Below, in pieces: positions 2-21,000 of a DNA stretch of 64,000 nt (position 1 is the first letter of the stretch; the number at the start of each line of letters is the position of its first letter). The stretch lies in NCBI GenBank assembly GCA_040753675.1, contig JBFMEB010000008.1, positions 6,736-70,735 on the forward strand, read 5' to 3'. The notes under the pieces are model-generated. The model was not told the DNA's origin and did not search any database. It worked only from the letters and a program-made list of their open reading frames with translations. The position numbers and the translations under genes were made by a program. Origin of the DNA: Candidatus Omnitrophota bacterium. Its GTDB lineage: Bacteria; Omnitrophota; Gorgyraeia; JAHJTE01.

Positions 2-3000
2 AACGATTGGGCGGCAGCAGTCAAAGTTGATATAGCTGTAAATGTGGGAGGTAAAATTGAAGGTCCTCACCCGACCCTTACTGTTATTACTTCCAGAAAG
101 AATGGCCCCGAAGGGCTCTTAGATTATCTGGCTATTCTTGAGCAGGTTTTATTAAATGCTGATACATCATTTGAAACTGCATTTTCTCAAGAAGCAAGGG
201 ATAACAATAATCTCACTAAGGCAGTTTCAGTTGAGTGGTATGGGGATGATTATCCCGAGAATCAGACTACTGTATACGAAAACACAAGAAATATCGAAGC
301 ATACATTATGCTAAGGTTGAATAAGCGAGTAGCGCAGCCGCAGAAACAACTCTTGATGCGCGTATGGGGCAATTTATTGGATAATCCGCATTCATGGTTT
401 GAGATTCCTATGAAGATAGTGAATGATTATCAAAATGGTAGTTATCGCTTTAGAGGCATTTTGCCTCAGTTCTTTTCAGGTACATTTACTTACAGGTGTT
501 CACTCGATGGTGGTAGAACTTGGTTCTGGTTGAATAAGGGGCCTCAGGACAATAGGGTAATTATCAATAAGCTTGAGCCATCAGCAGAGTTAAGTGAAAG
601 AGAAACATTTATTCAATTTGCGCCACCTCGCACATCTCTAAGAAGTATGACTGAACAAGCACCAGACACAGAGCAATTCTACTATAGTAATAAGGATAGA
701 GGAGACGTTGCGAGGTTTACTCAAAATATTGCTGGAGATAAACGCTTTGTATACTATTTTGCCAGAGCACAGGTTAGCCAGGCAGAAGGCGAAGAAAATA
801 GGGTAATTTTTGCAGATTATATTGAGGGCAAAGACAAAAGGTTAGGTGGCTCAATCGCAATATACTTTACTAAAAAAGATATGACCATAACTATTGAGAT
901 GAATGGCGCAATGCAAAGTGAAACGGTAATATCAGATGACGCAGAAGAAGAGACGCGTGGCGAGCGAGGTTGGGATAGAGCCAAAATAGTAGTCTTTTTA
1001 GATGATGATTATACAGTGCGTAGCGTTGAGCATCTCAGGAGTTCTATGGGCCTGTCGCGGATTGCAATTTCGATATTATTGACTGATGCCGGTATCCCTC
1101 GTCTATTACCAGAATTATATAGCATTTTAAAAAGACAATTATCCCTATCAGATGTTGATGATCTATTGCGCCACGTTGAAAAAATAGATAATCAAATAGC
1201 ACCTCTAAGTTTGATTTCTCATATTAATGGCCTGCTTGCCTCTAAAAAAACGCAGGATATCACAGATGAAGATATTCTAAGAGTCAGAGACTTAATATAC
1301 TGCAAGAGCTGGATTATAAGAAGAATCACGTTAAAATGCCTATATAATTTAGTAAAGCATAATAGGTTCTCGGCTGAAGAGTTAGAAGAGCTAAGAGATT
1401 TTTCATTACGGAGTAATATTGCCGAAGATTTACATATATTCAGAAGAATGTTCATAGAAGACCCCCAGAGCATCGTCGATACGATTAATTCATTGTTTAA
1501 AATCCAGATAAACAGTCAAGACTTGGCACATGCTTATATACGCTGGTTTGGTGCAGGGCAAAATAAGAATATTTATAGGGCCACTATATTTTTACGCTCC
1601 GGCAAAGAATTCAGTATTGCCTTATCTACAATCAGGCATGATCCTATCGGAGAAGGCTTTGATAGAAAAAGAATTGATGAAGCTACAGAATTTTGGCGAG
1701 AATTATCTAATAATAATTGTCCTCAACTTTGCAAGTTTGGTATGTCGTTATGGGCCGAAGACTATAGGCCGCGCATAGCAGATAAACCTATTTTGCCTAC
1801 GCTAAAGAGGCAGGCATACGATACGAGCCGTTTGATTAGTAATGATGTACAAGTCGTATTGCGAGAGTTTGTAGAAGGTCATGACTTACAGCAGAGTGTA
1901 GATGAAGAGAATATTTCTCCGGAGGAGAAGCGAAAGGCAGTATCAACTTGTGTAAGACTAGTTAAAGGTCTTTGGAAATTTTCCTCCCAGCAGTTTTATA
2001 TAAGTGATTATAAACCAGCTAATATTGTATTGACCAAAGACGCAGAGGGGCAATTTGTAGCCAAGATAGTTGATTTAGATATACTGAGGGCAAACGGAGA
2101 GATTTCTGATTTGCTAGATTCTATGGAAAGCTATTCCTGTTATAAAGAATATCTTGCCGGATTAAAAGAATCGCTTGAATCAAGGCATAGCATCACTGGC
2201 GTTACTGCTAGAGAGCCCATAGATGCCTCGAGTCGCGGAAACAGCCGCGAAGGAGTTACTGCACTCATCAGCCAATTTGGCGGCATTGAGGCAATCATCC
2301 AGCAATTTGGCAGTTTAACAATTCAACAGATTAAGGAATTATATCAGATACCAGAATCAGACTTAACTCGTTTAGTTAATTTAGGTGTGCAGTTTACCCG
2401 TGGCCCTCCTGAACTTGGCGTTGCAAATCACTTCCAAGAAAATACTATTTACATTTTAATTCCTGTAAACGCAACTCTCCAAGAAGTCTCTCATGAAATA
2501 TTCGCAGTTCTTAATCCAGAAGTAACCCACCAGCAGAACCCCATCCGCCTTGCCATCAACAATCCTGGTCCTTCTGAATTTGAAATAATCCGCCAATACT
2601 TGAAAGGCAACTTATCCAGCATACAGCTTGTAAATGTAAACGGCGTATCACCTGCTAATCTGCATTACTTATTAACCAAGGACTTGGCAGCAGAGCCAAG
2701 CTTTAGACAATGGTTTAACCAGAATATCTTTGCTACTTCTTCTGGCTTAGCCAGTAAGGATACCTCTGGCAAAGAAGTTGAGCTCTTATCTGTAACTGAG
2801 ATTATTGAGACCAAAGACCTTCCCTGGAAGTCCTTGGATGTTGATGTAGTCTTAGAAGCTCAAGAGGTAAAACTTGCACCTGTGCATATAAACCAAGGCG
2901 CAAAGAGGGTCTTAGTAAATCATCCTTCAATCCTTGCAGTAAGTGCTTTAAGGCAAGTAGTCTTGAGTCTGCCCCAGGATAAGATTATTGCTGTTGAATT

Positions 3001-6000
3001 TACAGATATCCAGCCGCCTACTAATTTACAGCGCGGCTTAGACAATTCTGGTCCTGACCCAGTCTTAATGAGAGCAATGCGTATTAACGTTAGCTCTTGC
3101 TTTAGCCAGGATGTAAAACAGGTCCTTAGCCAGCTTATTCCCCAGTTAGCTCAAATTACCCAAGGCCGCATCCACTTTAGTCCTCAGGCTCAAGGTAGTC
3201 TCTTAGATATACACATAATCTTGAAAGAGGATACTGACATAAAGACCATTAATCAGTTGTTTAAACAAGCTTCTCTGACTAGCTTAAAAGATAGACTCAT
3301 CTACTCTGAGGATAATTCTATAGTCTCATCTGATTTAGCTGCAGAGCCAAAACTCATTTACTTATCCCGCTCTACCAAGGTCACTGGCAAGAGAATAGTC
3401 CACTTACAAGTCTGGCACAATGAGCATACTGGGTTTAGCTTAACCCAATTACCAGAGGTTTTATCTCTCTTGCAAACAAAAACTCCTGGCACTATTATCA
3501 GTTCAAAAGATTTATCAGCTATCCCAACTAAACTCGAACAACTCCTTAGCTGGGTTAGGACTCAAAGGCAAGATTTATCTATTAGTTCTGGTACCTCATC
3601 TTACTTACCTCATCCTACTCGCAAACTTCCTAAGATATTGCCGGATGATATCAGGGCAATTGTAGGCATTAATGGCCCAGGCAGAACTGGCCGCACTATT
3701 TGTTGGGCAATGGCTGGCAATCCTAACATTGACCTGCGTATGATCAACGGCGCATCCAGTGCCTTTGTCTTGATGTGGTTATTAGCAGAAGATACTGTGC
3801 AAGCCTCAACCCATAAGCCAGTAGCCAGACTCATCATTACCTATACTCAACTAAAAAGAGAATTAAACACCTTATTAGTAAACTATTCATACGAAGAAGT
3901 CCAGACCATGTTAGAAGGACTGATTAGTTCAAGTAGGCTCTTGGTATTAGAAGAAGATGAGTTTAATAAAGCCTTATCCAAGCTCTTAACTACCTGGGCT
4001 AATCAAAACCCAGAACAGGGAGTGAGTAAACTAAAAGCCTCTCTAATCGCAATATTAGACCTCTCTGGTAAAAAACTCCTCTTAACCAACGAACGAAAAG
4101 CAGTAAGCGAACTTGCCTGGAACCAGGCTGGTATAAACATTATCTTAGAATGTACTGGTGATTTAAAGAATGCAGATGAGGCAAGCCAGCATTTAACTAA
4201 CATCCCAGGCGGCAAGGTCATTATCTCAGCTCCAGCTGAAGGCGCTGGCCAGTCAGTAGTCCTGCCCATAATATTACCTTCTAAGGCAGCCAGGATTGTT
4301 GACAATGCCTCTTGCACTACTAATTGCTTAGTTCCTGCTACTTATGTTTTAGATAGAGAATTTGGAGTTATTGCTCAAGAGATACTTACTGACCATGCCT
4401 ATACCACTGACCAGGTGTTTGGCAAACATGCTCCTCATAAAAAAGAGCCCACCCGAGGAAGAGATGGAGGGATTAACATCCTGCCTGGCTCAACTGGAGC
4501 AGCCACAGCAGCAGCTAAGATTATTACGAGCTTAATTGGCAAATCTGATGGCTGGGCAGTAAGAGCTCCAGTAGTTACTGGAAGCGTGGTAGTTATTACT
4601 GCTGTGCTTAAAGGCAAGGTTAGCCGAGAAGATATACAACATGCCTTAAGAAAAGCCAGTCTTACCTACTTAAAAGGCGTACTTGGCTACACTGTTAATC
4701 CTATTACCTCAAGCAGCCTTATTGGTAATCCAGCTTCCAGCATTGCTGATGGTAATTCTATTCAAGTGATTAACTATGATGAAGAACTTAATCAGACCAT
4801 AGTAAGACTTGAGACCTGGTACGATAACGAAACTGGCTTCTCTACCAGAATGGTTGACCATGCAGTGTATGTTGCAGGCCTAATGCAATTACCCGGAAGA
4901 GTCATTGCTGACATAGGTCCTGATACAATTGAATTATTTAGGAAACATCTACAAGATAATCTATCTACAGAAGGCACTATTCTCTGGAACGGTCCATTAG
5001 GCGTAGTTGAGGTTCCTGTTACAGCCAAAGGCACAGAGGCAATAGCCGATACAATTGCAGGCCTACCTGCAAGTATTACCAAGGTCATTGGTGGTGGAGA
5101 CACCTTAAAGACCTTACCTGATTCTATCCGAAGACAGATGACCCACGTCTCAACTGGTGGAGGTGCATTCTTAGAGGCATTCCAATTCGGCGTTGAAAAC
5201 CTTCCTGGCTTAAAGGCATTAGTTGACCCAGAGACTAAACAATTCAGCCAATTAGATGAGCTGTTAGCTAAATTAAAAGATGGCGATAGCGTCTTAATCC
5301 GTGCTGACTTTAACGTGCCGTTAGATTCCCAGCTCAATGTCACTGATAATACCCGCATTGTTGAGGCCTTAGCTACTATCAGGGATATATTAAATACTAA
5401 AAAGGTAAAGGTGATACTCTTAACCCATCTTGGCAGACCCAATGGCAAGTATGATCCTAAACTTACTACTACTCCCATATATGAGGAATTATTAAGACTC
5501 TTACCTGAATATAAAATACATAAGGTAAATGACTGCGTTGGTGAACCAGTAAGACAATTTATTAAAGATACCTTAGCCCCCGGCGAGATTCTATTGTTGG
5601 AAAACTCCCGCTTCAGATTAGCTGAAGAGCTTAACTCTGATAGCTTCTCTCAAGAATTAGCTAACTTGGCTACTTATTATGTCAATGATGCCTTTGCAGT
5701 AAACCACAGGGCACATAGCTCTAACGTAGGGGTGACTAAATTCTTGAAGTTCGGCCATAAGTTTGCTGGCCGCCTCTTGGAAAAAGAATACCTCCACCTC
5801 AAAGCCCTTTGTGAAAACCCCACTCAACCTCTCATCGTGCTCCTGGCAGGCGGCAAGGTTGCTGACAAGATGCCTATTATCAATGCAGTTAAGGATAAGG
5901 CAATACTCTTCTTAATTGCTGGCAAGATGTCAGTTGCCTTCTTAGAAGCAAAAGGAATTAAAGTAGGCGATTCTTATCCGGATAAGCAAGATGTGGAATT

Positions 6001-9000
6001 AGCTGCTAAGCTCTTAGCTGACCCAACCTTAGCTCAGAAGATCATCCTGCCTATTGACTACACTGTAGTCACCGATGTCTCCACAGGAAAAGATGCCACA
6101 CTAGAGAAAGGAGATGTTCTTCCTACTGATACCTCTGTATTCGAAGCAGCATTTAGAGACTACTTGACTTATTATGTCCCTGACCAGACTCAGGAGGCAA
6201 AGGCAAGAGAACCAAGAGACGCCTCTGCTGAAGGCAAAACTCGCGAAGAAGTTACTACACTCATCAGCCAATTCGGCGGCATCCAGGCACTCATCAACCA
6301 ATTCGGCAGTTTAACAATTCAACAGATTAAGGAATTATATCAGATACCAGAATCAGACTTAACCGGCTTAATTGATTTAGGCGTGCAGTTTATTCGAGGC
6401 CCTCCTGAGCTTGGAGTTGCCAACCATGTTGAAAACTCCCTTACCTATATTATCATCCCTGAAACCGCCACTTCCAAAGAAGTCTCTCACGAAATAAATG
6501 CAGTCTTAAATCCCGAGCTTACTCATGAAGAAAATCCAATCCGCCTAAGTATATCTCTTTACGGACCTCATCCTTCACAAGAAGGGCTAAGGCTCTTATA
6601 TGAGAAGGTAGCAGGAGCACGTCAACAAAAACCAGCTGACTTTAGAATCAGAAGTCTCTATGCCTTCCCGGTTCAAAAACATGGCGCCACCCCTTCTGAT
6701 GCAATAAGTTTTGGTTGTGTTTTAGAAAGCGGCCCAATATTAGAACAGGCAGGAGTAATGGGAGGTATCTCAGCTGGCGAGGCAGAACCCGGAACACACG
6801 AGAGTATAAATGCTGCAATTAAATTCTTTAACGAATATGTAGCCAAAGAATTCATTGGCTTAAATGTCGCAGACCCAGAGAAAATAACTAAAAAAATTAT
6901 TGAATTAGACGATAAGTTTAAGGCTCAAGCTGAAAACAAAGATAAACCTCGTTTCTCTTACATTGGCTCTGAGATTTCAGTTGGTATCTCGATGATTGTC
7001 TCAATTGCCTTTGCTGAGAGATTAGGCGTTCCTTTGGAAATAGTTTTAAATTATCGTTACAATGAATATGCCCTAACCCATAATTTAGCTACAGGACTAA
7101 AGCCTATAACTATTCCAGTAAATTATTCAGTTGTCTGGGAAGGGGGAAAACACGGTGCAGCCAAATTCTTACCAGAATTAGTAGAAGCAGGCATTATTAA
7201 AGATGACAGCCGCTTCCCAAAGGAATTCAAAGACCCTGGGAGAATCGCAAAAGGCGATAAATCCGTTATGCTGGCAATGGTCCCGCCACAAGAGACCCAG
7301 GTCATTGTCTTTGCTCCTACCTGGAGACAGGCTCGTGATATAGGAATTAAGCTTACCAAAAAATATCAGGCCTTACTTAAGGAAAACGGAATTAATATAG
7401 AATATGGCGCTGAATCTGGCCGAACTACTAAACAAGTCTACACCAAAGATAAACGGCTTATTACCTTAGAATTAGTCTTAGATATTTTAGAAGATGCAGT
7501 AAATTCCCTGCCAGAAGAAGAGCAAAGATTTGTGCGCTATGCCTTAGACATTGCCTCTTCTGAAATGTATATACCAGAGATTGATATGTATTACATTGGT
7601 CCTTCTTCTGCCGGCAATGATAGCGGCTTAGTTACAAATGAAGAATTTACTAAATATAAATTAGAACTATTTAAGAGATATCCGCGCTTCATCTCCTGCG
7701 AAGACTGGGCAGATGAAAATAAAATAGAGCACTGGGAATCTGCTAAAGCCATAATGCCGACAATGATTCAGATGAGTGATGATAATGTGGTCTCAAATGC
7801 TCTCCTCATCAGGAAGTTTACCCAGGCAGGAGTAATGAATGCCCATTTACAAAAAGCTAATCAGTCAGCAGAAGAATTGGCTATGATTGAGGCAGTTGCT
7901 ACGAGCCACTTCTTAAATAATGTAGTTATCTTCTCTCACCGCGGCACTCGTCCAGAACTTGAGACATACACTGCAATTTCGGCTATAGCTATGGGTGCAT
8001 TTGCTGGCAAATGGACCTTATGGGGACCTGGAAGAGGTGCTTTAATTGCAGTTATGAATCAGGTAGATGAACTATATAACCAAGGTCCTTATAAAAATGT
8101 TACCGTTACTTATCAAGGCGGCCTTGTTTTAGATCCAAACGGCCCCTATAAAGATTATGGCTGGGCAAAGAGATTGAGAGAAGAGATTGGCTCTGCGGTT
8201 TATAAAAGGCGGCATATTTTAAAGCAACTTTTCAACAATAAGGTGGCTTCTAAAATAATTTATGTGGTGCTTAAAGGCGCAAGAGAAGAACTTGAAGGAG
8301 TTGCTCATCCTAATTTAGATAATATAGCAAAGCAATCTGCTTTAGGATTGATAAATATCGTTGGCGACCAAGGCAATACTCTTAATTTAGTTTTAGAAGA
8401 AGCTGCTAACCTGGGGATGGATGTTATTTCTTTTGCTGGAAAGAATTTGACTGAGCAAATCGAAGGATTAGAGACAAACATTCCAAATCATAATTTCTTC
8501 TCTTTAGAAATAGATAGCAGAGATGTAGGTAGTTTCGATGGTTTTATCCCGCAAATCCTCAGTATGATGAATTTTGAAAATGCCTATACATTGGTTATTA
8601 CTACAGACTCTTTTGACATCGCTCCAATTTTAATTTATTCCAAAAATAGCAGACAATATAAAGGTATAGATAGATTTACACAAGAACAGGCAAGAGAGGG
8701 AAGTTTAGGTGTCATATCAGGCCAGGATATTTTATCTTTGACACTTGGCCATGCGGGTAGATTGGATAAAGTAGATGGCCCGGTTGATACTGGCGATAAA
8801 AATGAGCCTTTTGTCGAAACAGTTCCTGGGTTAACTTATACAAGGAGTCCTTCTAAGATTGTTTTCTTGGTGATGGACGGATTAGGGGATGTGCCTTTTG
8901 ACGCTGATACAGCATTAGAAAAAGCTCATCATCCTAATTTAGATACTTTGGTAAAACAATCTTCTGTCGGATTAGTAGATATTTCTTCCCTGCCAGGCGT

Positions 9001-12000
9001 TACTCCGGGTTCAGGCCCGGGTCACGCTGCCATCTTTGGTTATAACATATTTAACTTTTTAGGAAGAGGCCCAGTAGATGCTTTAGGAGCAGGCCTTAAA
9101 GTAGGGCCTGGCAATGTTGTAGCCAGAGCTAATCTTGCCACGCTAAGAGATGGAAAAGTTGTTGATAGAAGAGCAGGCAGGCCTAAGACAGAGCAAACAG
9201 CAGAAATTGTTAAAAAATATCTTTCTGGCATAGAGATTAACGGAGTAAGGTTTAATTTTTATGCAACCCAAGAATATCGTATGGCGCTAATTATTGAAGG
9301 AGAGGATTTATATCCAGATGTTACAGACACTGATTCAGGAATGGGAGGAGTAGCTCCTTGGCCGGCTCAGGCACGTTCAGAAAAGGGAGTCAAGTTAGCT
9401 GGTTTAATAAATAAACTAACACCAGAGATAAATAGAAGATTAGCTGACAATGAAATTTTACCAGCAGCAAATACAGTATTGCTTAGGGCATTTGATATTT
9501 TAAAACCATTTCCTACTTTGAAAGAACTCTACGGCCTAACAGCTGGTGCAATCTGCACTCACGCTGCTTATAAAGGTATAGCTACTCTAATAGGAATGGA
9601 TGTTATTTCTTTTGCTGGCCAAAGTATTCCAGAACAAATTGAAGCGTTAAGAGCAAACGTCTCAAAATATGACTTTATATATTTTCATATCAAAAAGACA
9701 GATAGCTATGGGGAGGACGGAAATTTTGAGGCAAAGGTTAAGGTAATTGAAGAACTCGATAGCTTTATACCAACGATTCTTGAGATGCTTGATTTAGAAA
9801 GAAGCGATACTTTAGTCCTGACAGCAGACCATAGCACCCCTGCACGGATAAAGGCGCATTCTTTCCATCCTGTCCCTGTGCTTATATATTCTAATAGAAG
9901 CAAACCATCACCCGGCGTAGAAACATTCACTGAGCAAGAGTCCGAAAAGGGAAGTTTAGGCAGAATACCAGCCAAGGTTATTATGCCTTTGACGTTATGG
10001 CACGCTGGTAAGGCGGAGAACTCAGGGCGCTCTGGAGGTTCTCAAAATATATTCTTTAGCATCGTCTCTGGCATTGGATTGGTAACTCCATCTGGCCTCT
10101 CCCTTGAATTAGATTCAATCTCGTATCTATTAATGGCTGGATTATTATTCGTAGGCTTATTGACTCACATTCCAGTTATTGAAGTGCTACGTGCGCATCT
10201 GGAAGAATTGATTTATGCAAAATCAAAGATGCCCTTCTATTATTCTTCTGAGCCGGAAAGGGAAAATCTCTTTATTGGCGTAGATGGCAAAAGAATATTG
10301 ACCAATCAGGATTTTGGAATATTGCTTAACAATTTGCAACTTCTCATAGGTTTTGTCAAAGAATGGCGCGATGGTTCTAAAGATATGCCATTTGCTGATT
10401 ACATAAAAGGCAAAATAGGCGCAGGGTCGCTGAAAGTTGAAATACAAAAAGAGCAAGGCCGTCAGCTAAACTTTAGAATCGGTGATGCCGTTGATATAGC
10501 GATGGATATCGCCACATTGGAGATTATCAATCAAAAGGGCTTGTCATTTTTACCAAGGTCTCAACATTATGCATCGATAGCAAGAGCGCGTTATAGACAT
10601 GAGATGGGAACTGAGGTCTTAATGGACGGCGAAGCCAATATGGGACTGGATACCTTTATTAGCTGGGAAAGAATAATTGAAGATAATATTGACAAAATTT
10701 CCAAAGCAGAAAGTACATTGCAAAAACTAAATTATGTTGGCGAAGACCAAAGTTTTGAAATCAAACTTGATGAAGAGAAAAATGTTGGAGAAGATGAAGA
10801 AATAGCCAAGATTGATGAGCAGCTGTGGCTACAAGATACCTTCTTTACTCTAGATGACCATCAAAACGTAGTGAATTGGCTCAACGGCCTTTATTATAGT
10901 GCTTTTGGCAGTGACGCCTTTGGAAGATTAGATAAACGGGGGACTTTGGAAGAGGCAAATGCGAAACAAAGTGCCCAGGACCTGCATGAACAATTACGTC
11001 AATTAGAAAAAGATGGCAATCTGCCAATGGGTGAGATGGTCGTTCATGAATGGGGTGCTGGCGACGGATTTTCAGCTGCAGTCTTTCTAGATATGATGCA
11101 CCAACTCGACGGGCAACACGGGACAAATTATTATGGAAGGTCAGCATATTATTTGATTGATTATTCCCAAAGAGTTGTTGAAGATTTTGCAGATAAACCT
11201 TATTTATTACCCCACAGACAAGTCATACGATTTATTCAAGCCGATGCCTTAGAGGCCAATGACAGCCTGCCCAAAGCCATTCTCATTAGGGCCAATCTTT
11301 TATTGAATTCTCTGCCTCGAAAGCTGATTAGGATAAGTGGCAGGCGGGGTGATGACATCCAAGAGGTGACGACTCGTGCTTATTTGAATCTTGGGCCTGA
11401 GGAAGAAATCGCGGACTTATCAGGTAAGCGCTACTTGATACCAGAATTAAAACGAATTATTTTAGAAGGCGATGTTGAGGCGCTTAGGAAATTAGGCATA
11501 AACTTTTTCAATCGTATCCAATGGAAGACCAAATACGAGAAAATAGATACTCATTACTACCCTTACAGAGAATATTTAGAGACTCTAGATGACTTAGGTC
11601 CGCGACGATGGGAACCATTTAGAGGAATGGTGACTCTTGAGTTAGGCACCCTATTCTTTTTGCAGCATAGAGTTAATAATCTCAGTAGGGAAGGTAAGAT
11701 ACAAATTAGTGATGCCGGTGTTAGTCCGTTTGATCTTCGGGAAAGTTCGAGCAATAATTTGGGAAAAATATTTAGATTCTACGGAGCGATATATTCCCCG
11801 GTTAATTATCACTTTCTGAAATTTAGCTTAGGGTTATCAATTTCGCTGGGAGTTGTTCACCAAGTCGACTTTGGCTTTGAATTCGTAGAAAGAAGAATCA
11901 AATTATGCAATGTCCTTAATGTTCTACAGGATTTTTCAACTTTTAAGAAGCTTTTCGGCTCTCCCTTTGCAAAGCCGGAAGTTTTGCAGTTAGCCTCAGA

Positions 12001-15000
12001 AGAAAGCGGGGAGTTTAGTGGAGAGAATATGGATAGGTTTATCGAGCATTTAAATAACAGAGCCCAAACATTAAATCGCCGACTTATTGAAGAGATAGTT
12101 CGTCCTTTTGAGGAAACCAGTCAATATGTAGATAATTTTGCAGATGCCTATGTGTATTGGCTCTACAGAGCAGTTCAGGACAGAAGAGAAGAATTGTTAA
12201 GAAAACAAAAATGGTTAATTCCGGGTAGTTGGCAGAGGTTGGCATTTGATAGTGAGCATAACGCATTTGCTCACCTTGCTGCTATTTACGGTTTTGACCA
12301 AAAGATCGACTCTATCTTTGCTGATATGAAATTCTTTTTCCCGAGCTTAATGATTTTTGATATTAAGCCAAGCAAAAGAGGAGGAAAGGTTTTACGCTTC
12401 ACTCCCCTCAGTTCTCTTATGGCTATTACTAAAATCTTTGGCAATGCGTTTCCAGGAGCCTTGCAATTACCCGCGTCATTCTCAAAGCGCAAAGATACTG
12501 CCATCGCCGGAGATAATAAAAATAGAGAAGCTGCCTTAGATATTTCAATGGCAAATGATGGGCTGATTTTTGAGATACCACAGGCGAAGAATGATGAGCT
12601 TTCAAGCCTTCCTTATGAATATGTTATTGTTCCATTAGTTGTTTCAAAGGAAAAAATTCCAGAGCCGCTTAAAGAGCTTATTGCTCAAACCAAGGGAACT
12701 GAAAAAGAGATTTCCCAAGCGGTGGTGAAATATCTGACTGAACAATTTAGCGCCACATCCATTAGCGTCCTTTCTAAACAAGTGCGGTCGCATAAGATTG
12801 CGGATGAAAAAGACTCAGAGGGGAAACCGCTAGGTCCAATTATCTTAGATGCATTATCTGCTATTGCAGTTATAAGCAGTAGCGGCGACCTTTTAATCCA
12901 GACACACTTCTGGATTAATTATAAATATATGGCATTTATTAATGAATGGAATGGAGAAATCGCTGAAGGTTTAGCTAAGTGTGAAGTTAGTCTTAGCGAT
13001 GAGTGGTATAAAGAAATTGACTTAAGCAAGCCGTTAGAATCATTAGCGCGTTACGGATTTATGTTCTTTAAGGAATTTAGCGAAGGTAATTATGGTCGAG
13101 CAAATCTTTTAGCCAGTCTCATTGATTCTATCAATAGAGATATTGAAAAACTTATCAACCCGGAAGGGATTATCTACGACGAACAATTGGGCGTGTTTAT
13201 TTCATCAAAGGATAGCGATGCTAAAATCCCTGGCTTTGGAAAGCATTTAGAGAAATTTTTAGGTAGTCTTAATAGCGTCCAGCAATTAGCTCAACTCTTG
13301 TATCTGTTGGCTACACCTAACTACGACAGAGAGCAAAACTCACCCATAGCGGTTAATAATCAACAATTACAAAATGGCCTTGTTGAGTTCTTTTGTCGCC
13401 TAAGTCGGCATTTAGACACATTAGCTATAGGGCACTTTGGTGATTTTGCTATGTTTGAGCCATTAAGGATAGAACTCGGTAGAATAATTACTCAATTCAA
13501 TAGAGTGGTTAGAGAACCGGACGCTATGGAGATTAATGGCACTGATTTTGATAGCTTAATTACCTTCCTTGAAGATAAAGGTGCCTACGTCTCAAATTAT
13601 GACGCTGAAAATCTTAGAAGCTTGTATCAAGCTTATGCTTTAGAGAACGGCTATTGGGCTTATGATATCTTGCAATTATCTGAAGTTTTGGGAATTGAGA
13701 GTTTTGTTAAGGCATTTAGGTTCTTGAAAGTTGAATCTGCGAGAGCAGTAAAGCCATCAGAGAGGCCTAATGAAATTTTTGATGGCACAGGCCGCATTGG
13801 ACGTTTAGGTTTGGCTTTAAGACTTGCCAATGATGTGAAAGCCCAAGAGGCAGATTACTCCGGCCGCTACGCAGTTAGAACGCGCGCTCTCAAAGGAAGC
13901 AATGCTGATGAAAAATTCCTGACCGCCCTTGAAAGCGTAAAAGATATGTTTGCTGACAGCGTCATTGAGGCATCTGGCTTAAAATTGCGCGGCAGGACTT
14001 TAGCAGAGTTGATTAAGGACAATCAATTAGTCTTTAAACCAGCCGACAGAGTTTTTGTTGCCAGGCAGGATTTTGTGAATAGAACCCCGGTTGAAAGTGT
14101 CTATCCAATTTATATTGAACTCGACGCTAAAAGAATAGGGGTCATCTATGCTATTGATGTAACTCAGTTTACCGAAGGCCTTAAAGCCAGTGGTGTTATA
14201 GAAGATAATTATCCCCGACCCTTTATCGTCGAAGTCGATGGTGAAGACATTTATTTTGGAATGCTCACTGATGCTACGCCGGGTGGTGTGCAGATGGGCG
14301 ATGGCACAATTGAACTAGCTGGTAAAGCCAAATTAGAAAGGCCGACTGTCTGGGAAATGATTGCCACAACCAAATTAACTGAAAGTGCTTCAGAAGAATT
14401 AGGCGCTGCTAAAGAAGAGTTAGAGCGACTACGTGAAATCTTGCGTCAAGTTGAGACTGCAAGATTCGGGGCCTGGCATCAGCGCTTCATTTATCTTAAA
14501 GCCCAGATTACCGGAAAACTCTTGTTGCCTTTAAGCGGCGGCATTCATTTTATGGGTAGATACTTGCATAAATTGCCTAAGGCAAAAGAACAGGGTCCTT
14601 ATTATGCAACGCCAACCTCTTGCTCTACCAACGGCGCCTCTTACTTTAGTCTTATGCTTTCAACGCTCTTTGGTTTTGGCCGTATGAGAGCAGCGCTCTT
14701 AGGGACAACATTCCATATGTATACATCTGACGGGAAAAAAGGCCCGTTCGGACACTTATTCCCTAAATCCACTGGCGCGGCAAACGGTGTTAAGCAGCAC
14801 CTGGATATTACAGCTATGTTTACAGCTCTTCGCACCCCGGTTGCTTTGACAGGCGGTGAGGTAGATGTTGTAGGCGGTTCAGTCTTTGATTTTGTGTTCC
14901 AAACTCCTTATCCAGTCCCCAAAGAAGTGATTATAGGTTTCTTGCAACGCGTTGGCCTTGAGTATCCCGAGGTTTTGAAGGTCTTTGAAAAAGAAGATGC

Positions 15001-18000
15001 CAAAGATGGTCGTTATCTTTGGAAGGATACAATAGGGGGCAAAAGAACCGGCTCTATACTTTATGCTAATATGCTGGCGCAAATTACCGATAATACCTTC
15101 CGGGTTCCTGTTGGTTACGACAATGAAATGAGTTTTTCTTTCAAGATGAATGAGTTCGCAGAAAGCTTATTCTTGTCTTTGAAGAGACAGGAGGACAAGA
15201 GAAAAAGGCAAGAAGCATATCCTCTTCATTTTATTACGGCCAAGGCGATGGTTAGGGCAGCTGATGAATACCTGGCAGAGCCGATGATTGAAGCCCAGTT
15301 CAGGCGCTTAGGTTTGATACTCGAACATTTTGCCGAAGAATATTTAAAGAGATATTATCCTAATGGCTCTGATCTTCCTATTTCGGAAGAGTTAAAGATT
15401 GCTTCTCATATTTCCGGCAGAATGAAATGGGAAATTAACAACGGCGAAGAAACCTTTAAGCGAATCCTAAAGAATCTTGGCTATACTTTTGAAGATATTG
15501 ATTTTGCCTTGGAGCAGATTAAGCTTCACGAATCTTACTCAAGCGAAGATGAGGCAATATTAGCGCAGGCAGAGTCTCTGCGCAGTGGAATATATGAAGA
15601 GCCGGGTTATTCTGGCAGCCCGGTCTGGTTTGAAAAAGTGCAATGGGTAAATTTGGGCTTCGATGAATATAAACAAGGCCTTTTGGAGGTTGGGAGGGCT
15701 TTAAGCTCAGGCGAATTTGATAAAAATTCTACTGTTTATAGATTATGGCAACGCCGGGATTGGGATTTTTCAGATGAAGGCATAGAGCCATATAGAGCAG
15801 TAGTCGAAGAATTTAATAAATTTGTTAACCAGCCGCTAAGCCGCGAACAGGGGCCAAGGCAATTGAGGGATTTTATTATACGGCTGCATATCTTATTAGG
15901 CCAGGCAGACAAAACTTTTAGCGCTCCCGGCAGGATGCTGCCCCGAAGAGATAAATGGAGAAGAAGGCATGTGGCTTTCGAGCGCCTGCTCTTCTATATG
16001 TTTACGCCTAAATTCCAGGAGCAATTGCGCAAAGACCCGTTTGAGGCAGCCAGTTATGTATTTATTGGCTTATGGAGTGAGCCGGTATTCTCAGACGGCC
16101 AACTGCGTATCGCATATTTTATTATGAATTATGTTTTAATCAAAGCCGGGTTTAAACCTTTTATAATTACTAAAGATAATATTGGAAAATATACAGATGC
16201 ATTCATACTTTATTCCAGCGCTCATTATAAAAGTATGGCTAAAAATATATTAGAAAATTTACTTAGCGGACAACCTCGGGCTCATTTATGGTTTACCTCA
16301 TCCTTACCGGATTATGTGAGCTTAGAGCCTGAGCGAGAGCCCCGGTTTAAGAGAGAAGAAGTTAGGGAGGGTGTTTTGGATGGCGAATGGCTTGAGTCAG
16401 TAGAAGCACTTCCAAAAGACCTGACTGTTTCGGAATTATCCATATTATTAGAACATCCTTTTGATGATTTCTGCGACTTTGCGATTGATGAATTAGAAAG
16501 CATAGGCGACAGAAGGGCAATAGTTCCTCTTTATGACAGAGTTAAGCAACTTCAGGATGAGGCGGCAGGCATGGATAGATATGGTAAACAAATTGTATTT
16601 GGAAGGCACGGGAGTTCTTTTGTAGGCGCTTCCTGGGATGAGATTGAGGAAAATCTCGAATGGCGTAATATTATGTCAGAGATTGGAAGAATTCTTTATT
16701 GTATCGATGCCATAAGAAACAGGGAGGCAAAGAGATTCGCGCGTTACTATTATCCAACTGCAGGATTAGGCAAATTATATCGCGAAAGAATTGTAGATAT
16801 TATTGAAAATGGCAGGATGAGGGAAGAATTATTTGAAGGAAACGTGGGAGAATTCATCAAACTCATCCGTGCTTATGATAAAAAGCATGGAACAAATCTT
16901 TCCCAGCAGGTTGTGTTTGCAGGCGGCTCGGTAAGAGACCCTATATTTGGAAGATTTAGCAATGATATTGACTTTAGCGTGGCTTTACCTGGTTTGAGTA
17001 ACGGAGATTTTTATGCCAATACCATTGCTCAAGTCTCTGATGTGGATATGGAAAGATGCCTTAAGATACTCATAACTGTTGCAGAGATTATCGGGGTTGA
17101 GCCCGAATCTTTGGTAAACGGAAAGGCAAAATTTCAAGGTGAGGAAATAGATTATTGCGGCCCGATAAGGCAAAGGTTGTCAGACGGCCGGGTGATTAAT
17201 AAAAGAAGGATTTTGGTTGATATAGATAGGAATACAATTTATACCGATTGCACTATGGCGCTTAATAGAATTGCTATGGATATGGACGGCAAGATGTACG
17301 GAAGCTTATTCGGCCTTTTTGATTTCTTAAGAGGTAAAATTCATTTTGGCGGGGATTACAAGGATATTACCTTGAATAATGTAGTCAGGGCTTTGAGGAC
17401 CTCATTTGGTACTGATACGCAAATCTCCAGGTTTGACCAGGATAGGATGAGAGAAGTAATAGAAAAATATAGAAGCGGAGAATATCCTTTGGTTACCGTA
17501 GACGTAGAAGTTATCCAGCGCCAGATTGATAGGATGGAAAGGGGAGAAAAGACTCCCGGTTCAGCTGTAAAATTATTAGAAAGATGGGGCATAATAGAAT
17601 TATTGGTTGAAGCCAAAAAGGCAATTGAGGTAACTGCGCCAGAACAAATTTTACATACAGAAGGCGTGTTTGTTTCTAAGGCCGAGCAGCCAAAAAAAGA
17701 GCCGACTATCTCTCTCACAGATGCGCCAGCTATGGGCGTTAGGCCAGATAGGGCAGGGCTTTCTGAAGAAGAAAGAGAAATGTTAAGGAAAATGTCCGAA
17801 GCTGAACGACTTGCTCATCTTAGGGATAACACAACTACCTTGCTTAGTATAATTCTGCTGGCTTTATTATTTTTTAGCGGCAAGGAAGCGGTATCTTTAA
17901 TGGCTATGTCATTTATGATGATGGCTACAGTAGCCGAAGTCAAAGGCAATAAAGGCATTGAGGAAACCTTAAGGAGATTTTACACAGCTAAGAAGGCACT

Positions 18001-21000
18001 GATTAATACTTATCGACAGGCTGATAAGGATGGCTACAGTATAGCTTACCGAGAAATAGTGCAAACTTCTAAAGAGGCAAAAGCAAGAATTAAGAGCGCA
18101 AAAGATTTAGAGACAATAGTTGACAGGTTAAAGCAGGCAGGTGAATTTGATGAATTTTTAATCGGCGAGGCAGAAGAGATTTTGGTTATGGCAGGTCTGG
18201 AGTTATCAAATGAGCACCGCGCCAGGATCAAGAAAGCTTCTAATAGAATTGCCGGTTCATTAATTGACGATGGGGCCCAGGCAGAAGATTTTTCTAAAAA
18301 GCTTATTGAAGCAACTGCGCCTATGTCTTTTGAAAATATCATTGAGCAAGAGCCAGAAGAATTTAACCAGCAAGGATATCAAGATTTGATTTTTACTCTT
18401 TCTAATCTTTCAAGGATAAAAGAGGCGGGAGCGATTGGCGTAACTACCCGGACCTCCAAGCAAACGCTTATCTGCATGTATCCTCTGGCAGATTTGCCTG
18501 AGTTTGAGCGGACATTTATTCATGAGGGCGTGCATTTTGCTACTCATTTAGGCATAATTCCGACTTCATTTAGCGATGAGGTAATCGCAGAGGCAGTTTA
18601 TAATAGTCTAATTTTCGAAGAAGAAGGCGAACTTGGCTTAAAAAAGAGAGACGAGATATTCCTTAGGGCGTTTGAATTAGGCAAGACTCTGGCGAAGAAA
18701 GGTAATTTGGTTTTAAGTTATGAGCAACTTTGTCAGTTGGCTCTGCATATGGATGAAGCCATTCGCAATATTTCTCTTGATGCTGTTGAGCGTATTGCCG
18801 GAGCTATTCTTGCCGGCCAAGCAGAATTTAGAAAGGAAAAAGAAGGAATTCCGGTGGTTAAGCATATCTTAGCTTATGCGAGAGAGGTATTCTCATATTC
18901 TAAGCCACGAGATTTAACTAAAGAAGAGCAGGAGAGACTTTCCACCTTAATGGCTACTATGCAGGATGTTGCTCAGGTAGCAACAAGAAAACCGGACTTA
19001 AGGCTTAAACCTTGGCTGCCTGAATCAGATATTGACACTCCGGCTTGGCGCTATAGTCAGAAAGATGTAATTGAATATGTGCCTTTAGATTTATTGCGCT
19101 TAAGCGAGGATGCGGCTAAAGGACTTTTATTCCAGGAGATATTCAGAGTGCTGTTTTCTAATGAGGGAATAATTGATGAAGATTTGAATAAGAATAGTTT
19201 ATTTAAACTTCTTTTTCGAGCCTTAAATACGCCACGACTTGTAAGAAGAGGGGTAGCTAAAGATGCCTATCCCGGTGCTTTAGCGTGGCTTAAAAAGCTT
19301 TATGAAAGTCTTTACGATATTAAAGATAAAATATTTGCGCAATACTTGATTTCTCAGCTTCCCCTACATCTACAGTTTATAGAGGGAGCTTTATATGAAG
19401 CAAGGATGGATAAGCTAGATAAAAGAATTAAAAATGAACGGGTGCTTGAGCTGTTAGATAAAACCAAAGATAGCCGTAAGAGAGCAATTGAAGCAAAGAA
19501 AGACGCAGATTTTTATAAAATTGTAAAAGAGGAAATTTGGCCTGCACTTGAAGAATTAGTTTCGCAAGATTTAAGCCAGTTACTGGCAAGGGACATGGCA
19601 AATAAAGGTAAGGTGAGTTTACCGCAAGACCAGCAGGATAGAGCTCGCCAAGGCCAGCCGGTTGATTTATTCCAACTTAGCCCAGAAGAGCAAGAGGATA
19701 TTCGCCAAGAGGTAGAGAAGGCTGAAGATGAAATAAGCAGAGAATATCAAGATATTTTAGAGCAAGAATTAGCGAAAAATAGCGAAGCTGGGCAGGCTCA
19801 AGTAACTGACAAAGGTTTTGGTTCAGGTTCTAAAGAGAATGAAACTGAAGCCTCAGATGTCAGGCAGGCGAGCCAGGATGTTCAGGACCGGCAGGATGGC
19901 AAACAATTATCCGAGCTGTCAGGGCAGCTTAGTCAGATAGCTGGAGATATTCAGGAAAACGCAAAAGAGATAGGAAGTCAGGCTGCGGCTATGAATGAAA
20001 AGGCAAGCCAGGTAAGGACCCGGGCCGGCGCAACCACTGATATGAATAATTTAGCTAATGAATTAGAAAATTTAGCTAATCAGATTTCGGGCCAGCAAGA
20101 GAAGCTTTCTCAGGAAACTAACGAGTTTTCTCAAGGCGCATCTAATTTAGATGAATTAAAAGATAAGATAACCAAAAGAAAAGAAGAAGCTGATTTAAGC
20201 GATTTAGACAGAGAAGTAGATAATTTAAAAGATAAGGCAGGCGATATTGATAACCAGGCAGCTGAAATCGAAAAACTGGCTAAACAATTAGAAGAGAAAG
20301 CCCAAAGCTTGTCTGAGGCAATTAAAACTAAGCCGGATGACGCTCAAAGCCTGCGTAGTCAATCAAACACAGTTGACCAGGATACTAATAATATAGGTAA
20401 GAGAGCAGAGCAAATAGATAAGGACTTAGATAAGGTAAATGAAATACTCGATAAATTATCAGGTATCGCCAAGAAAATTTCAGGTAAGAGCAAGGATAAA
20501 ACTGGCAAACCCGAAGCCCAAATTGACAAAGAGGCCCAGGAAAGAGAGAGAAAAGCTGAGGCAGAATCAGCTGATTTTGCGAAAAGTTTATTAGCAACCG
20601 CTCTTCAGCGGCTGTCTCAAATGAGAAGTTCGTCATCAGAAAAGGGCTACGCAAAAGGAAGCGGGCAAAGACTGAATAACAAAGGAAAAGAAGATAAAGT
20701 CACTCAAGCAGACCTTCAATTTTATCGCAAATTTATCAAACCTATCCGGCCAATGGTTCAAGCAACCGCAAAGACAATCGAACGATTATTAAAGGAGATG
20801 GAAAGAACCGGACCGCTTCATACAAAATCAGGAAAACTTGTAAAAAGAAGCTTGCCCTTGACTCCTGCGGGAAGGATTCGTTTCTTTAAGCCCTTATTGC
20901 CGGAAGGAGTAAGGGGAAGGGTATGCCTGGTAATTGATACCAGCGGCTCAATGGGTGCGGCAGAAGAGGGAAGTGACTTGTGGAATGTAGCATTAAGTAC

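What the first reader, a model, noticed from the sequence alone, without database searches (positions are those of the whole stretch)
4890..6110. Circularly permuted phosphoglycerate kinase
The PGK C-terminal ~115 residues (WNGPLGVVE / GGGDT / STGGGAFLE blocks) come first, immediately after GAPDH. The PGK N-terminal ~285 residues (RADFNVP ... HLGRP ... AHRAHSS ... LAGGKVADK) follow, ending exactly where the first piece begins in canonical PGK. This is either a genuine circular permutation or the remnant of a tandem PGK duplication with reciprocal deletions. PGK is a hinge-bending two-domain enzyme, so a permuted form is structurally interesting.
Basis: seen in the sequence. Interest (0 to 1): 0.6.

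Follow-up and report, generated by a model that had tools for sequence, protein, structure and literature searches.

The report
Circularly permuted PGK in giant gene
A textbook glycolysis enzyme, phosphoglycerate kinase, is encoded here with its last quarter moved to the front and welded directly onto the preceding enzyme (GAPDH), inside a giant multi-enzyme gene of Omnitrophota-type bacteria; relatives keep the same rearrangement, so it is a real and probably working natural variant.

Summary
Window nt 4895-5227 encode the last ~105 residues of phosphoglycerate kinase (PGK profile positions 290-393). Nt 5282-6139 encode positions 13-293. An 18-residue junction (5228-5281) joins the old C-terminus to the old N-terminus. 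The two pieces tile the family profile once, and no other PGK fragment occurs in the window.

It is not a separate gene. All 64 kb are one stop-free frame (at least 21,333 codons) that also carries GAPDH, enolase-like, iPGM, AAA+ and two PFOR domains, among others.

The same order, GAPDH then PGK-C then PGK-N, with the same cut site and the same 25-residue GAPDH-to-PGK spacer, recurs in four other large multi-enzyme proteins. Two are from Candidatus Omnitrophota MAGs. They share 44-59% identity with the window and, where tested, form an exclusive clade.

The window domain keeps 75 of 83 near-invariant PGK positions, including all catalytic motifs. AlphaFold2 with a natural-order alignment gives pLDDT 95 and pTM 0.91.

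Natural head-to-tail PGK-PGK fusions exist in public data. They fit an origin by duplication followed by loss of the outer halves.

Verdict: a genuine, conserved, probably active natural circular permutant of PGK. I found no report of one.

The parts
2..64000 (+). Fragment of one giant open reading frame (at least 21,333 codons, open at both window ends) that carries every domain listed below
   Evidence: There is no stop codon in this frame, and the ORF listing finds no complete ORF of 150 aa or more on the + strand. Pfam domains tile it.
2585..3415 (+). Divergent first GAPDH-like domain, the upstream member of a GAPDH tandem
   Evidence: Gp_dh_C E 3e-7 and a weak Gp_dh_N match.
3662..4879 (+). 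Well-conserved GAPDH domain. It has SCTTNC and HAYT motifs and an ~85-aa insertion in the NAD-binding part. Its C-terminal helix runs directly into the PGK piece.
   Evidence: Gp_dh_N at 3662-3823 and Gp_dh_C at 4328-4795; translation; spacer analysis.
4895..5227 (+). PGK C-terminal piece (profile 290-393): the ADIGP strand, WNGPLGVVE, GGGDT, STGGGAFLE and the native C-terminal helix
   Evidence: pLDDT is about 95 in the model.
5228..5281 (+). Junction joining the native PGK C-terminus to the native N-terminus (PETKQFSQLDELLAKLKD). Most of it replaces the normal N-terminal ~12 residues. The surrounding GGAF-to-NVP motif span is 54 residues in four of five members and 52 in the fifth.
5282..6139 (+). 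PGK N-terminal piece (profile 13-293): the whole 3-PG/1,3-BPG-binding N-domain, the hinge helix and the first half of the nucleotide domain (RADFNVP, HLGRP, ENSRF, NHRAHSS, AGGKVADK). It ends at ..GDVLPTD, which corresponds to the canonical IPxGW.
6800..8065 (+). Divergent enolase-like domain downstream
   Evidence: Enolase_N and Enolase_C. PDB enolases match at E 1e-17, roughly 25% identity by my reading of the alignment.
8855..9994 (+). Cofactor-independent phosphoglycerate mutase-like domain
   Evidence: Metalloenzyme (PF01676) and PhosphMutase (PF10143).

Best explanation
Nt 4895-6139 encode one complete phosphoglycerate kinase domain whose sequence is circularly permuted. The chain enters the fold in a surface loop of the nucleotide-binding domain, just before the conserved (G)LDIGP strand. 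It runs to the native C-terminal helix, crosses an 18-residue junction into the native N-terminal strand, builds the whole substrate-binding domain and the first half of the nucleotide domain, and leaves at the residue that canonically precedes the entry point.

Shown: the order of the pieces, the exact tiling, conservation of the arrangement in relatives, and retention of functional residues. A confident single-unit model is a prediction.

Inferred: the domain is an active PGK (ADP + 1,3-bisphosphoglycerate to ATP + 3-phosphoglycerate). It works as the second step of a covalently fused lower-glycolysis block (GAPDH, PGK, enolase-like, iPGM) inside a membrane-anchored giant multi-enzyme protein of an Omnitrophota-type bacterium.

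The permutation moves both chain connections from the substrate domain to one loop of the nucleotide domain. This lets the GAPDH C-terminal helix join PGK with no flexible linker; the spacer is invariant at 25 residues.

The most likely origin is a head-to-tail PGK-PGK duplication within a fused gap-pgk gene, followed by in-frame loss of the first ~290 codons of copy 1 and the last ~100 codons of copy 2.
For: Order and tiling.

Same order, same cut (profile 286-293) and GAPDH immediately upstream in P0121/L003 (2485 aa, 59% identity), P0122/L001 (3600 aa, 53%), P0123 (1072 aa, 54%) and P0126 (2437 aa, 44%). These are single full-length aligned stretches in a search of 1.84 billion representatives. 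The NCBI records MDD4939506.1 (a 2500-aa member of the P0121 cluster) and MCX5695737.1 (P0122) are from Candidatus Omnitrophota MAGs.

The three permuted PGKs tested form an exclusive NJ clade, 55-61% identical to each other and 43-47% to the best canonical PGK.

Near-invariant canonical positions retained, out of 83: window 75, P0121 80, P0123 79, P0122 71, P0126 70. The canonical range is 76-83. The Arg/His basic patch, both Lys of GGxKVxDK, WNGPxGxxE, GGGD and STGGGA are all present in the window.

The junction keeps both native terminal segments and has near-constant length, and the GAPDH-to-PGK spacer is exactly 25 aa in four members.

The AF2 model has pLDDT 95.3 and pTM 0.91, including the C-piece and the junction. 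The best PDB matches are all PGKs, with about 300 aligned columns at 2.0-2.6 A to open-form structures.

Full tandem PGK-PGK fusions exist naturally (P0124 797 aa, P0125 795 aa, plus the truncated P0127 and P0001). Their head-to-tail junctions resemble the junction here.

An engineered permutant of yeast PGK was solved as PDB 1FW8 and appears among the hits.

A GAPDH tandem lies just upstream, which shows that domain duplication occurs in this protein.
Against: - No activity, expression or processing data exist for this protein.
- Foldseek aligns sequentially, so placement of the C-piece against a crystal structure was not checked independently. It rests on AF2 confidence, and only 9 sequences cover that piece in the alignment.
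- Eight near-invariant positions differ in the window (for example G to A in GGAK and T to A in MAYTF). The canonical G-L before DIGP is I-A in this clade; from memory that pair lines the adenine pocket, so nucleotide preference could differ.
- The relative P0122 has lost F of DFNVP and T and G of STGGGA, so constraint may be relaxed in some lineages.
- The neighbouring enolase-like domain is far more divergent, so the block may not be a fully active pathway.
- The tandem PGK fusions found are from unrelated lineages. They show feasibility, not ancestry.
- No DNA repeat trace of a duplication remains.
Confidence: 0.8

Rival explanations
1. It is a decaying remnant: a tandem PGK duplication that lost pieces and now serves only as an inert spacer or scaffold in the giant protein.
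For: The domain sits in a protein with many divergent or degenerate enzyme-like domains, including a weak first GAPDH and an enolase-like domain at only E 1e-17. P0122 has substitutions in two catalytic motifs.
Against: The window keeps 75 of 83 near-invariant positions and every catalytic motif. Other clade members keep 70-80 of 83 despite only 44-61% overall identity. That pattern indicates purifying selection on PGK function. There are no leftover PGK fragments. Junction and spacer lengths are conserved.
Confidence: 0.1
2. It is a neofunctionalised kinase. The fold and phosphoryl-transfer machinery are kept, but nucleotide or acyl-phosphate specificity has changed because the new chain entry and the GL-to-IA change sit next to the adenine pocket.
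For: There are clade-specific substitutions at otherwise near-invariant positions: K14 to D, T to A in MAYTF, A to T after GGGD, and GL to IA/LA before DIGP.
Against: All residues that bind 3-PG/1,3-BPG and the transferred phosphate are canonical. The domain always follows GAPDH, the producer of 1,3-BPG.
Confidence: 0.1
3. It is an assembly or scaffolding artefact that swapped two parts of a pgk gene.
For: None specific. Giant ORFs come from metagenome assemblies.
Against: The same order and breakpoints occur in independent samples and sources: an NCBI MAG from Lac Pavin, JGI Ga0265297, JGI 3300009538, Logan and ENA. These sequences are 44-61% identical, which is too diverged to be copies of one error. 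The frame is open throughout.
Confidence: 0.01
4. The two pieces are separate units that do not fold together, for example after proteolytic processing of the giant protein between them.
For: Post-translational cleavage of giant Omnitrophota proteins has been proposed (West-Roberts preprint).
Against: Neither piece is a complete domain, because the nucleotide-binding fold is split between them. The junction preserves the native terminal helix and strand that pack together in PGK. AF2 gives one compact body with pTM 0.91.
Confidence: 0.03

Closest known systems
Canonical phosphoglycerate kinase (Pfam PF00162, EC 2.7.2.3; e.g. PDB 1VPE, 7ZY7)
   Same: Identity is 36-47% over both pieces. All substrate-binding, nucleotide-binding and catalytic motifs are present. 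The predicted fold is the same two-domain fold.
   Different: The sequence order is C-terminal quarter first, then the N-terminal three quarters. The native termini are covalently joined. The domain is embedded in a protein of more than 21,000 aa instead of a ~395-aa monomer.
Engineered circular permutant of yeast PGK (PDB 1FW8; Tougard et al. 2002, Acta Cryst D 58:2018, cited in PMC7761438)
   Same: The native N- and C-termini are joined and new termini are opened elsewhere. That structure shows that the PGK fold tolerates permutation. 1FW8 appears among the hits.
   Different: 1FW8 is man-made, with new termini at residue 72 in the N-domain (PMC2395249 table). Here the permutation is natural and conserved in a clade. 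The cut is at about profile position 290 in the nucleotide domain, and both new ends are fused to other domains.
Natural tandem PGK-PGK fusions (P0124 797 aa, P0125 795 aa, P0127, P0001)
   Same: They contain the same head-to-tail junction of native C-terminus to native N-terminus. Read from mid-copy 1 to mid-copy 2, they align with the window domain in one stretch.
   Different: They keep both complete copies. They come from other lineages (for example a Bacteroidales MAG contig), share 36-38% identity with the window, and are not linked to GAPDH.
Giant multi-enzyme proteins of Omnitrophota ('Archaeovorins' in West-Roberts et al. 2023, bioRxiv 10.1101/2023.11.21.568195; 'multi-enzyme metabolic clusters' in bioRxiv 10.64898/2026.06.07.730766)
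   Same: The window is an ORF of more than 20 kaa with many different enzyme Pfams and scattered TM-like segments. Relatives are from Omnitrophota MAGs. Glycolytic domains were already reported in such proteins.
   Different: Text searches of both preprints for 'phosphoglycerate' and 'permut' found no mention of a PGK domain or a permutation. The GAPDH-cpPGK unit also occurs in much shorter proteins of 1,072 to 3,600 aa (the 1,072-aa one may be truncated).
Other natural fusions of glycolytic enzymes (PGK-TIM of Thermotoga maritima) and the bacterial gap-pgk-tpi-pgm-eno operon (from my own knowledge, not tested here)
   Same: Consecutive glycolytic enzymes are encoded together. The order GAPDH then PGK mirrors the operon order.
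   Different: Here the enzymes are translationally fused without a linker, and PGK is permuted. In the Thermotoga fusion PGK is collinear.

Membership tests
Phosphoglycerate kinase (PF00162) | Significant match to the family profile covering both domains | tested here: met
   Pfam gives 317 bits against a cut-off of 27. The local profile covers positions 13-393 of 394 in two pieces.
Phosphoglycerate kinase (PF00162) | Basic patch for 3-PG/1,3-BPG (R of RxDxNVP, H and R of HLGRP, R of ENxRF, R of AHRAH) | tested here: met
   All are present: RADFNVP, HLGRP, ENSRF, NHRAHSS.
Phosphoglycerate kinase (PF00162) | Nucleotide and phosphoryl-transfer motifs (two Lys of GGxKVxDK, WNGPxGxxE, GGGD, STGGGA) | tested here: met
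   AGGKVADK, WNGPLGVVE, GGGDT and STGGGA are present. 75 of 83 near-invariant columns are kept.
Phosphoglycerate kinase (PF00162) | Collinear order of the N-domain followed by the C-domain | tested here: not met
   Profile 290-393 precedes profile 13-293.
Phosphoglycerate kinase (PF00162) | Catalyses 1,3-BPG + ADP to 3-PG + ATP | not testable with these tools
   Needs an enzyme assay.
Natural circular permutant of a known fold | Two segments in swapped order that together cover the parent once, with no gap and no duplicate | tested here: met
   Profile 290-393 plus 13-293. The overlap is at most 4 profile positions, and there is no third piece in 21,333 aa.
Natural circular permutant of a known fold | The parent's termini are joined by a short connector | tested here: met
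   An 18-residue junction retains the native C-terminal helix and N-terminal strand. Its length is conserved in relatives.
Natural circular permutant of a known fold | Same three-dimensional fold as the parent | tested here: inconclusive
Natural circular permutant of a known fold | Heritable: the same arrangement in independent relatives | tested here: met
   P0121/L003, P0122/L001, P0123 and P0126. The three members tested form an exclusive clade.
Omnitrophota giant multi-enzyme protein | Single ORF of 10,000 aa or more | tested here: met
   At least 21,333 codons without a stop, open at both ends. The full length is unknown.
Omnitrophota giant multi-enzyme protein | Many distinct enzyme families tile the polypeptide | tested here: met
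   GAPDH, PGK, enolase, iPGM, AAA_5, two PFOR copies, GNAT, HATPase_c, acyl-CoA dehydrogenase, PRPP synthetase, Pkinase, GT9, HAD and M49.
Omnitrophota giant multi-enzyme protein | Multiple transmembrane segments | tested here: inconclusive
   There are 24 hydrophobic 19-mers (Kyte-Doolittle average of 1.8 or more) and none in aa 1-3371. No dedicated TM predictor was available.
Omnitrophota giant multi-enzyme protein | Encoded by an Omnitrophota genome | tested here: inconclusive
   The closest relatives are from Candidatus Omnitrophota MAGs. The window's own source was not identified.
Archaeovorin subtype (West-Roberts 2023) | SecA_DEAD domain, N-terminal C39/S8 peptidase, HEAT repeats, GT5/GT1, NUDIX | tested here: inconclusive
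   None of these was found in the window. Only GT9, HAD_2, HATPase_c and AAA_5 overlap the published domain lists. The window lacks both ends of the ORF.

The most novel reading that the evidence does not exclude
GAPDH-cpPGK is a conserved, rigid bi-enzyme unit. The permutation was fixed because it lets the GAPDH C-terminal helix plug straight into the PGK nucleotide domain, orienting the two active sites so that the labile 1,3-bisphosphoglycerate is handed over directly. Within the giant membrane-anchored protein, this fused lower-glycolysis block would act as an on-board ATP-regenerating module for the AAA+/kinase/ATPase domains on the same polypeptide. It would also be, as far as I could find, the first natural circular permutant of PGK, with natural tandem-fusion intermediates on record.
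Probability: 0.3. Interest if true: 0.75.

Novelty: new variant of a known kind. Interest (0 to 1): 0.55.

Why it matters
PGK is the standard example of a hinge-bending two-domain kinase. Engineered circular permutants of it were used in classic folding studies. A natural permutant conserved across a clade shows that evolution has used the same freedom.

It also comes with the full duplication series in public data: canonical PGK, tandem PGK-PGK, and permuted PGK. It gives a defined, small (424-aa), confidently modelled and easily expressed piece of an otherwise intractable giant protein.

The invariant linker-less join to GAPDH gives a directly testable case of possible substrate channelling of 1,3-bisphosphoglycerate. 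It also bears on how Omnitrophota giant genes are built: the same GAPDH-cpPGK unit sits in proteins from about 1,000 aa (possibly truncated) to more than 21,000 aa, consistent with giant genes growing by fusion and duplication of metabolic modules.

Practically, automatic annotation names these multi-enzyme proteins after a single domain (for example 'phosphoglycerate kinase', 2,500 aa, or 'triose-phosphate isomerase', 3,600 aa). KO-based pathway calls in this phylum may therefore be counting such domains.

Tried and rejected
- AF2 on the single sequence gave a useless model (pLDDT 38.9).
- Aligning canonical PGKs as they are leaves the C-piece uncovered.
- Splitting canonical PGKs into N and C fragments made MAFFT stack the fragments on each other, whatever helper rows I added. 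The approach that worked used natural substrings in the permuted order (the cp relatives and the mid-copy-1 to mid-copy-2 parts of tandem PGKs) plus canonical PGKs.
- The word-indexed protein search listed only canonical PGKs and one truncated tandem among its best 120. It missed the permuted relatives that the exhaustive search later found, and I cannot explain why.
- The first metagenome scan used GAPDH motifs and found nothing. The second, restricted to the junction, found one locus.
- A direct-repeat search around the domain found only short chance-level matches and one 20-nt repeat at 30-nt spacing downstream. There is no DNA trace of the duplication.
- I considered whether the helix right after the N-piece (TSVFEAAFRDYL) is a vestige of the second copy's post-DIGP helix. 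HMMER does not extend into it, so I give it no weight.
- The only ORF that the ORF listing reports here (4792-5478, minus strand, 228 aa) is an antisense shadow of the PGK coding frame, not a gene.


Full report
**What is in the sequence.** The first surprise concerns the context rather than PGK. The ORF listing returns no complete + strand ORF near the finding. A six-frame scan shows that the frame starting at base 2 has no stop codon over all 64,000 bases: 21,333 codons, open at both ends. The window is therefore a fragment of one giant gene. Pfam scans of 1,000-residue slices give the following domains:
- a weak GAPDH-like domain (nt ~2585-3415)
- a good GAPDH (3662-4879)
- PGK (4895-6139)
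- an enolase-like domain (6800-8065)
- an iPGM-type mutase (8855-9994)
- two dynein-type AAA domains (~21989-23311)
- two pyruvate:ferredoxin oxidoreductase copies (31397-35275 and 36767-40978)
- GNAT, HATPase_c, acyl-CoA dehydrogenase, PRPP synthetase, a protein kinase, GT9, HAD and an M49 peptidase

A hydropathy scan finds 24 TM-like segments, none before residue 3372. The GAPDH-to-iPGM block is therefore one long soluble stretch.

**Checking the observation.** Query residues 13-120 align to residues 305-408 of Chlamydomonas PGK 7ZY7. Query residues 140-403 align to residues 24-284. T. maritima 1VPE gives the same pattern.

A profile I built from 118 canonical PGKs places profile positions 290-393 at nt 4895-5227 (E 1e-30) and positions 13-293 at nt 5282-6139 (E 3e-89). 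A maximally permissive scan of the whole 21,333-residue frame finds no further PGK fragment. The two pieces therefore make exactly one PGK with the order swapped. An 18-residue connector (nt 5228-5281) largely takes the place of the normal first ~12 residues.

The cut falls between the canonical IPxGW and (G)LDIGP. The N-piece ends ..GDVLPTD and the C-piece starts ..GRVIADIGP.

**Is it real and heritable?** A scan of species-representative genomes found a Candidatus Omnitrophota MAG from Lac Pavin (JAPLLX010000004.1, locus L001). It is 55% identical over all 576 residues of GAPDH C-domain plus PGK-C plus PGK-N, inside a 3,609-aa open frame (the NCBI protein P0122 is 3,600 aa). A junction-specific metagenome scan found a second locus (L003, JGI Ga0265297) with 65% identity across the junction.

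An exhaustive HMMER search of 1.84 billion cluster representatives returned four proteins that align to the whole 424-residue query in a single stretch, which means they share the permuted order:
- P0121: 2,485 aa, 59% identity
- P0122: 3,600 aa, 53% identity
- P0123: 1,072 aa, 54% identity
- P0126: 2,437 aa, 44% identity

The local profile confirms C-piece then N-piece with the cut at profile 286-293 in each. All other listed hits are canonical PGKs matched in two stretches, or tandem PGKs.

In every permuted case GAPDH lies immediately upstream. The distance from the GAPDH WYDNE motif to the PGK ADIGP motif is exactly 25 residues in the window, P0121, P0122 and P0123. The GGAF-to-NVP motif span that contains the junction is 54 residues in four of five and 52 in the fifth.

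De-permuted, the three permuted PGKs I tested (window, L001, L003) form an exclusive neighbour-joining clade. They are 55-61% identical to each other and 43-47% to the best canonical PGK. Public records name these proteins after one domain: 'phosphoglycerate kinase' (MDD4939506.1, 2,500 aa) and 'triose-phosphate isomerase' (MCX5695737.1, 3,600 aa), both from Candidatus Omnitrophota. An assembly artefact is excluded.

**Is it likely to work?** Of the 83 alignment columns that are at least 95% conserved among 118 canonical PGKs, the permuted proteins retain these numbers:

| Protein | Retained of 83 |
|---|---|
| window | 75 |
| P0121 | 80 |
| P0123 | 79 |
| P0122 | 71 |
| P0126 | 70 |
| canonical PGKs | 76-83 |

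All residues of the 3-PG/1,3-BPG basic patch are present in the window, as are both lysines of GGxKVxDK, WNGPxGxxE, GGGD and STGGGA. Keeping these at only 44-61% overall identity within the clade indicates selection for PGK chemistry.

The clade also has its own substitutions. The G-L before DIGP is I-A or L-A, T becomes A in MAYTF, and A becomes T after GGGD. From memory the G-L pair lines the adenine pocket, so a shift in nucleotide preference cannot be ruled out.

**Structure.** A single-sequence AlphaFold2 run failed (pLDDT 39). The tool refuses artificial sequences. MAFFT could not place split canonical fragments correctly. I therefore built an alignment from natural sequences that already have the permuted order, plus 86 canonical PGKs. 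The natural-order rows were the four permuted relatives and the stretch from mid-copy 1 to mid-copy 2 of natural tandem PGKs.

The result is a confident single body: mean pLDDT 95.3 and pTM 0.91. The C-piece and the junction sit at about 95-97. The top Foldseek hits in the PDB are PGKs; the first 50 of 67 matches at E <= 0.001 are listed. About 300 columns align at 2.0-2.6 A to open-form structures and 4.3-4.8 A to closed ones.

Foldseek aligns sequentially, so it only covers the long piece. I could not run a permutation-aware superposition. That step is marked inconclusive rather than met.

**Origin.** The junction keeps the whole native C-terminal helix and the native N-terminal strand. It looks like a head-to-tail fusion of two complete ends, not a trimmed loop. 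Exactly such fusions exist in public data. P0124 (797 aa, on contigs of 358 and 69 kb) and P0125 (795 aa) are two full PGKs in tandem. P0127 and P0001 are the same but truncated at contig ends. Mollusc gene models carry two to four copies.

Deleting the first ~290 codons of copy 1 and the last ~100 codons of copy 2 of such a tandem, downstream of a fused GAPDH, gives precisely what is seen, including the absence of any linker after GAPDH. A GAPDH tandem just upstream shows that domain duplication happens in this protein.

The tandem fusions I found belong to other lineages. No DNA repeats remain. The route is therefore inferred, not shown.

**Context and mechanism.** The relatives are multi-enzyme glycolysis proteins:
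- P0121/L003: PFK, aldolase-like, GAPDH, cpPGK, followed by a separate PPDK ORF
- P0122/L001: GAPDH, cpPGK, aldolase-like, TIM, enolase
- P0126: GAPDH, cpPGK, enolase, next to genes for HMGL-like, a PF01081-family aldolase and glycogen phosphorylase

In the window the same unit is followed by enolase-like and iPGM domains. The order GAPDH then PGK echoes the common bacterial gap-pgk operon (my own knowledge). I infer that the domain is the ATP-forming step of a covalently fused lower-glycolysis block.

The permutation moves both chain connections to one loop of the nucleotide domain, which permits a rigid, constant-length join to GAPDH. Whether this serves channelling of 1,3-bisphosphoglycerate is untested. 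The enolase-like neighbour is much more divergent (E 1e-17), so not every domain in the block need be active.

**Comparison with what is known.**
- Giant Omnitrophota genes, their TM segments and scattered glycolytic domains have been described (West-Roberts et al. 2023 preprint; Seymour et al. 2023).
- A 2026 preprint defines a 'multi-enzyme metabolic cluster' class of such giants.
- Text searches of the two giant-gene preprints for 'phosphoglycerate' and 'permut' found no mention of a PGK domain or a permutation.
- Full-text searches combining PGK with circular permutation returned, among the papers I checked, only the engineered yeast permutant 1FW8, whose new termini are at residue 72.
- A search combining Omnitrophota, PGK and fusion found nothing relevant.

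Within the limits of the held library, a natural circularly permuted PGK appears unreported. Circular permutation as a phenomenon, PGK as an enzyme, and giant Omnitrophota genes are all known. This is a new variant of known kinds rather than a new category.

**Verdict.** I put the interest at 0.55. The case is clean, conserved, structurally attractive and easy to test by experiment. It also gives an entry point into giant multi-enzyme proteins and possible GAPDH-PGK channelling. Its biochemistry is most likely ordinary PGK chemistry.

Noticed in passing
window 31397-35275 and 36767-40978: There are two tandem pyruvate:ferredoxin oxidoreductase copies, each ordered Fer4, TPP_C, POR (gamma), POR_N, PFOR_II. 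That is delta-beta-gamma-alpha, not the order of single-chain PFOR. Read across the repeat, it equals the porGDAB operon order, so this may be another product of duplication and trimming.
   Followed up: no
window 2585-3415: A second, strongly diverged GAPDH-like domain (Gp_dh_C E 3e-7, weak Gp_dh_N) sits directly upstream of the conserved GAPDH, forming a GAPDH tandem. P0122 and P0126 show the same pattern.
   Followed up: partly
window ~3824-4080: An insertion of about 85 residues lies inside the GAPDH NAD-binding domain (..TYTQLKRELNTLLVNYSYEEVQTMLEGL..). It is conserved in P0123 and L003. Its function is unknown.
   Followed up: no
P0124, P0125, P0127, P0001 (locus L004), P0137, P0162: Natural head-to-tail PGK-PGK fusions exist. 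Two are complete (797 and 795 aa) and two are cut by contig ends. Mollusc (Aplysia, Bulinus) gene models carry two to four PGK copies. For P0125, NCBI calls a 400-aa PGK on the same contig where JGI/ENA call a 795-aa ORF.
   Followed up: partly
L003 640-8148 and 8182-12483; L001 6878-17704; L005 3001-10314: The relatives are 'glycolysis polyproteins' of 2,400-3,600 aa (PFK, aldolase-like, GAPDH, cpPGK, TIM and enolase in various combinations). In L003 a stop codon separates the polyprotein from a PPDK ORF. The window's giant gene may have grown by fusing such modules.
   Followed up: partly
window 10115 onward (24 sites, e.g. 29072-30806 and 48650-49142): TM-like hydrophobic segments occur in clusters between enzyme blocks. 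There is none in the first 3,371 residues, which hold the glycolytic block.
   Followed up: no
window 6602-8251: The enolase-like domain is far more diverged than PGK (E 1e-17 to PDB enolases, roughly 25% identity by my reading of the alignment). The SGETED loop is altered, and the lysine in the canonical GQIKTG stretch appears not to be conserved in the alignment. It may be inactive or repurposed.
   Followed up: partly
window 6258-6307: A short tandem repeat, CACTCATCA(G/A)CCAATTCGGC at 30-nt spacing, encodes ..LISQFGG / ..LINQFGS just downstream of the PGK domain.
   Followed up: no
window 4792-5478, minus strand: The only complete ORF of 150 aa or more reported by the ORF listing in the entire window is a 228-aa antisense shadow of the PGK/GAPDH coding frame. 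It is a trap for gene callers if the giant frame is ignored.
   Followed up: yes
The word-indexed protein search did not list the permuted relatives (P0121, P0122), although they are in the same collection and score far higher than the canonical PGKs it listed. I could not explain this.
   Followed up: no
window 21989-23311 and 63476-63997: There are dynein-type AAA_5/AAA_7 ATPase domains, and an M49 (dipeptidyl-peptidase III-like) peptidase domain cut by the window end.
   Followed up: no
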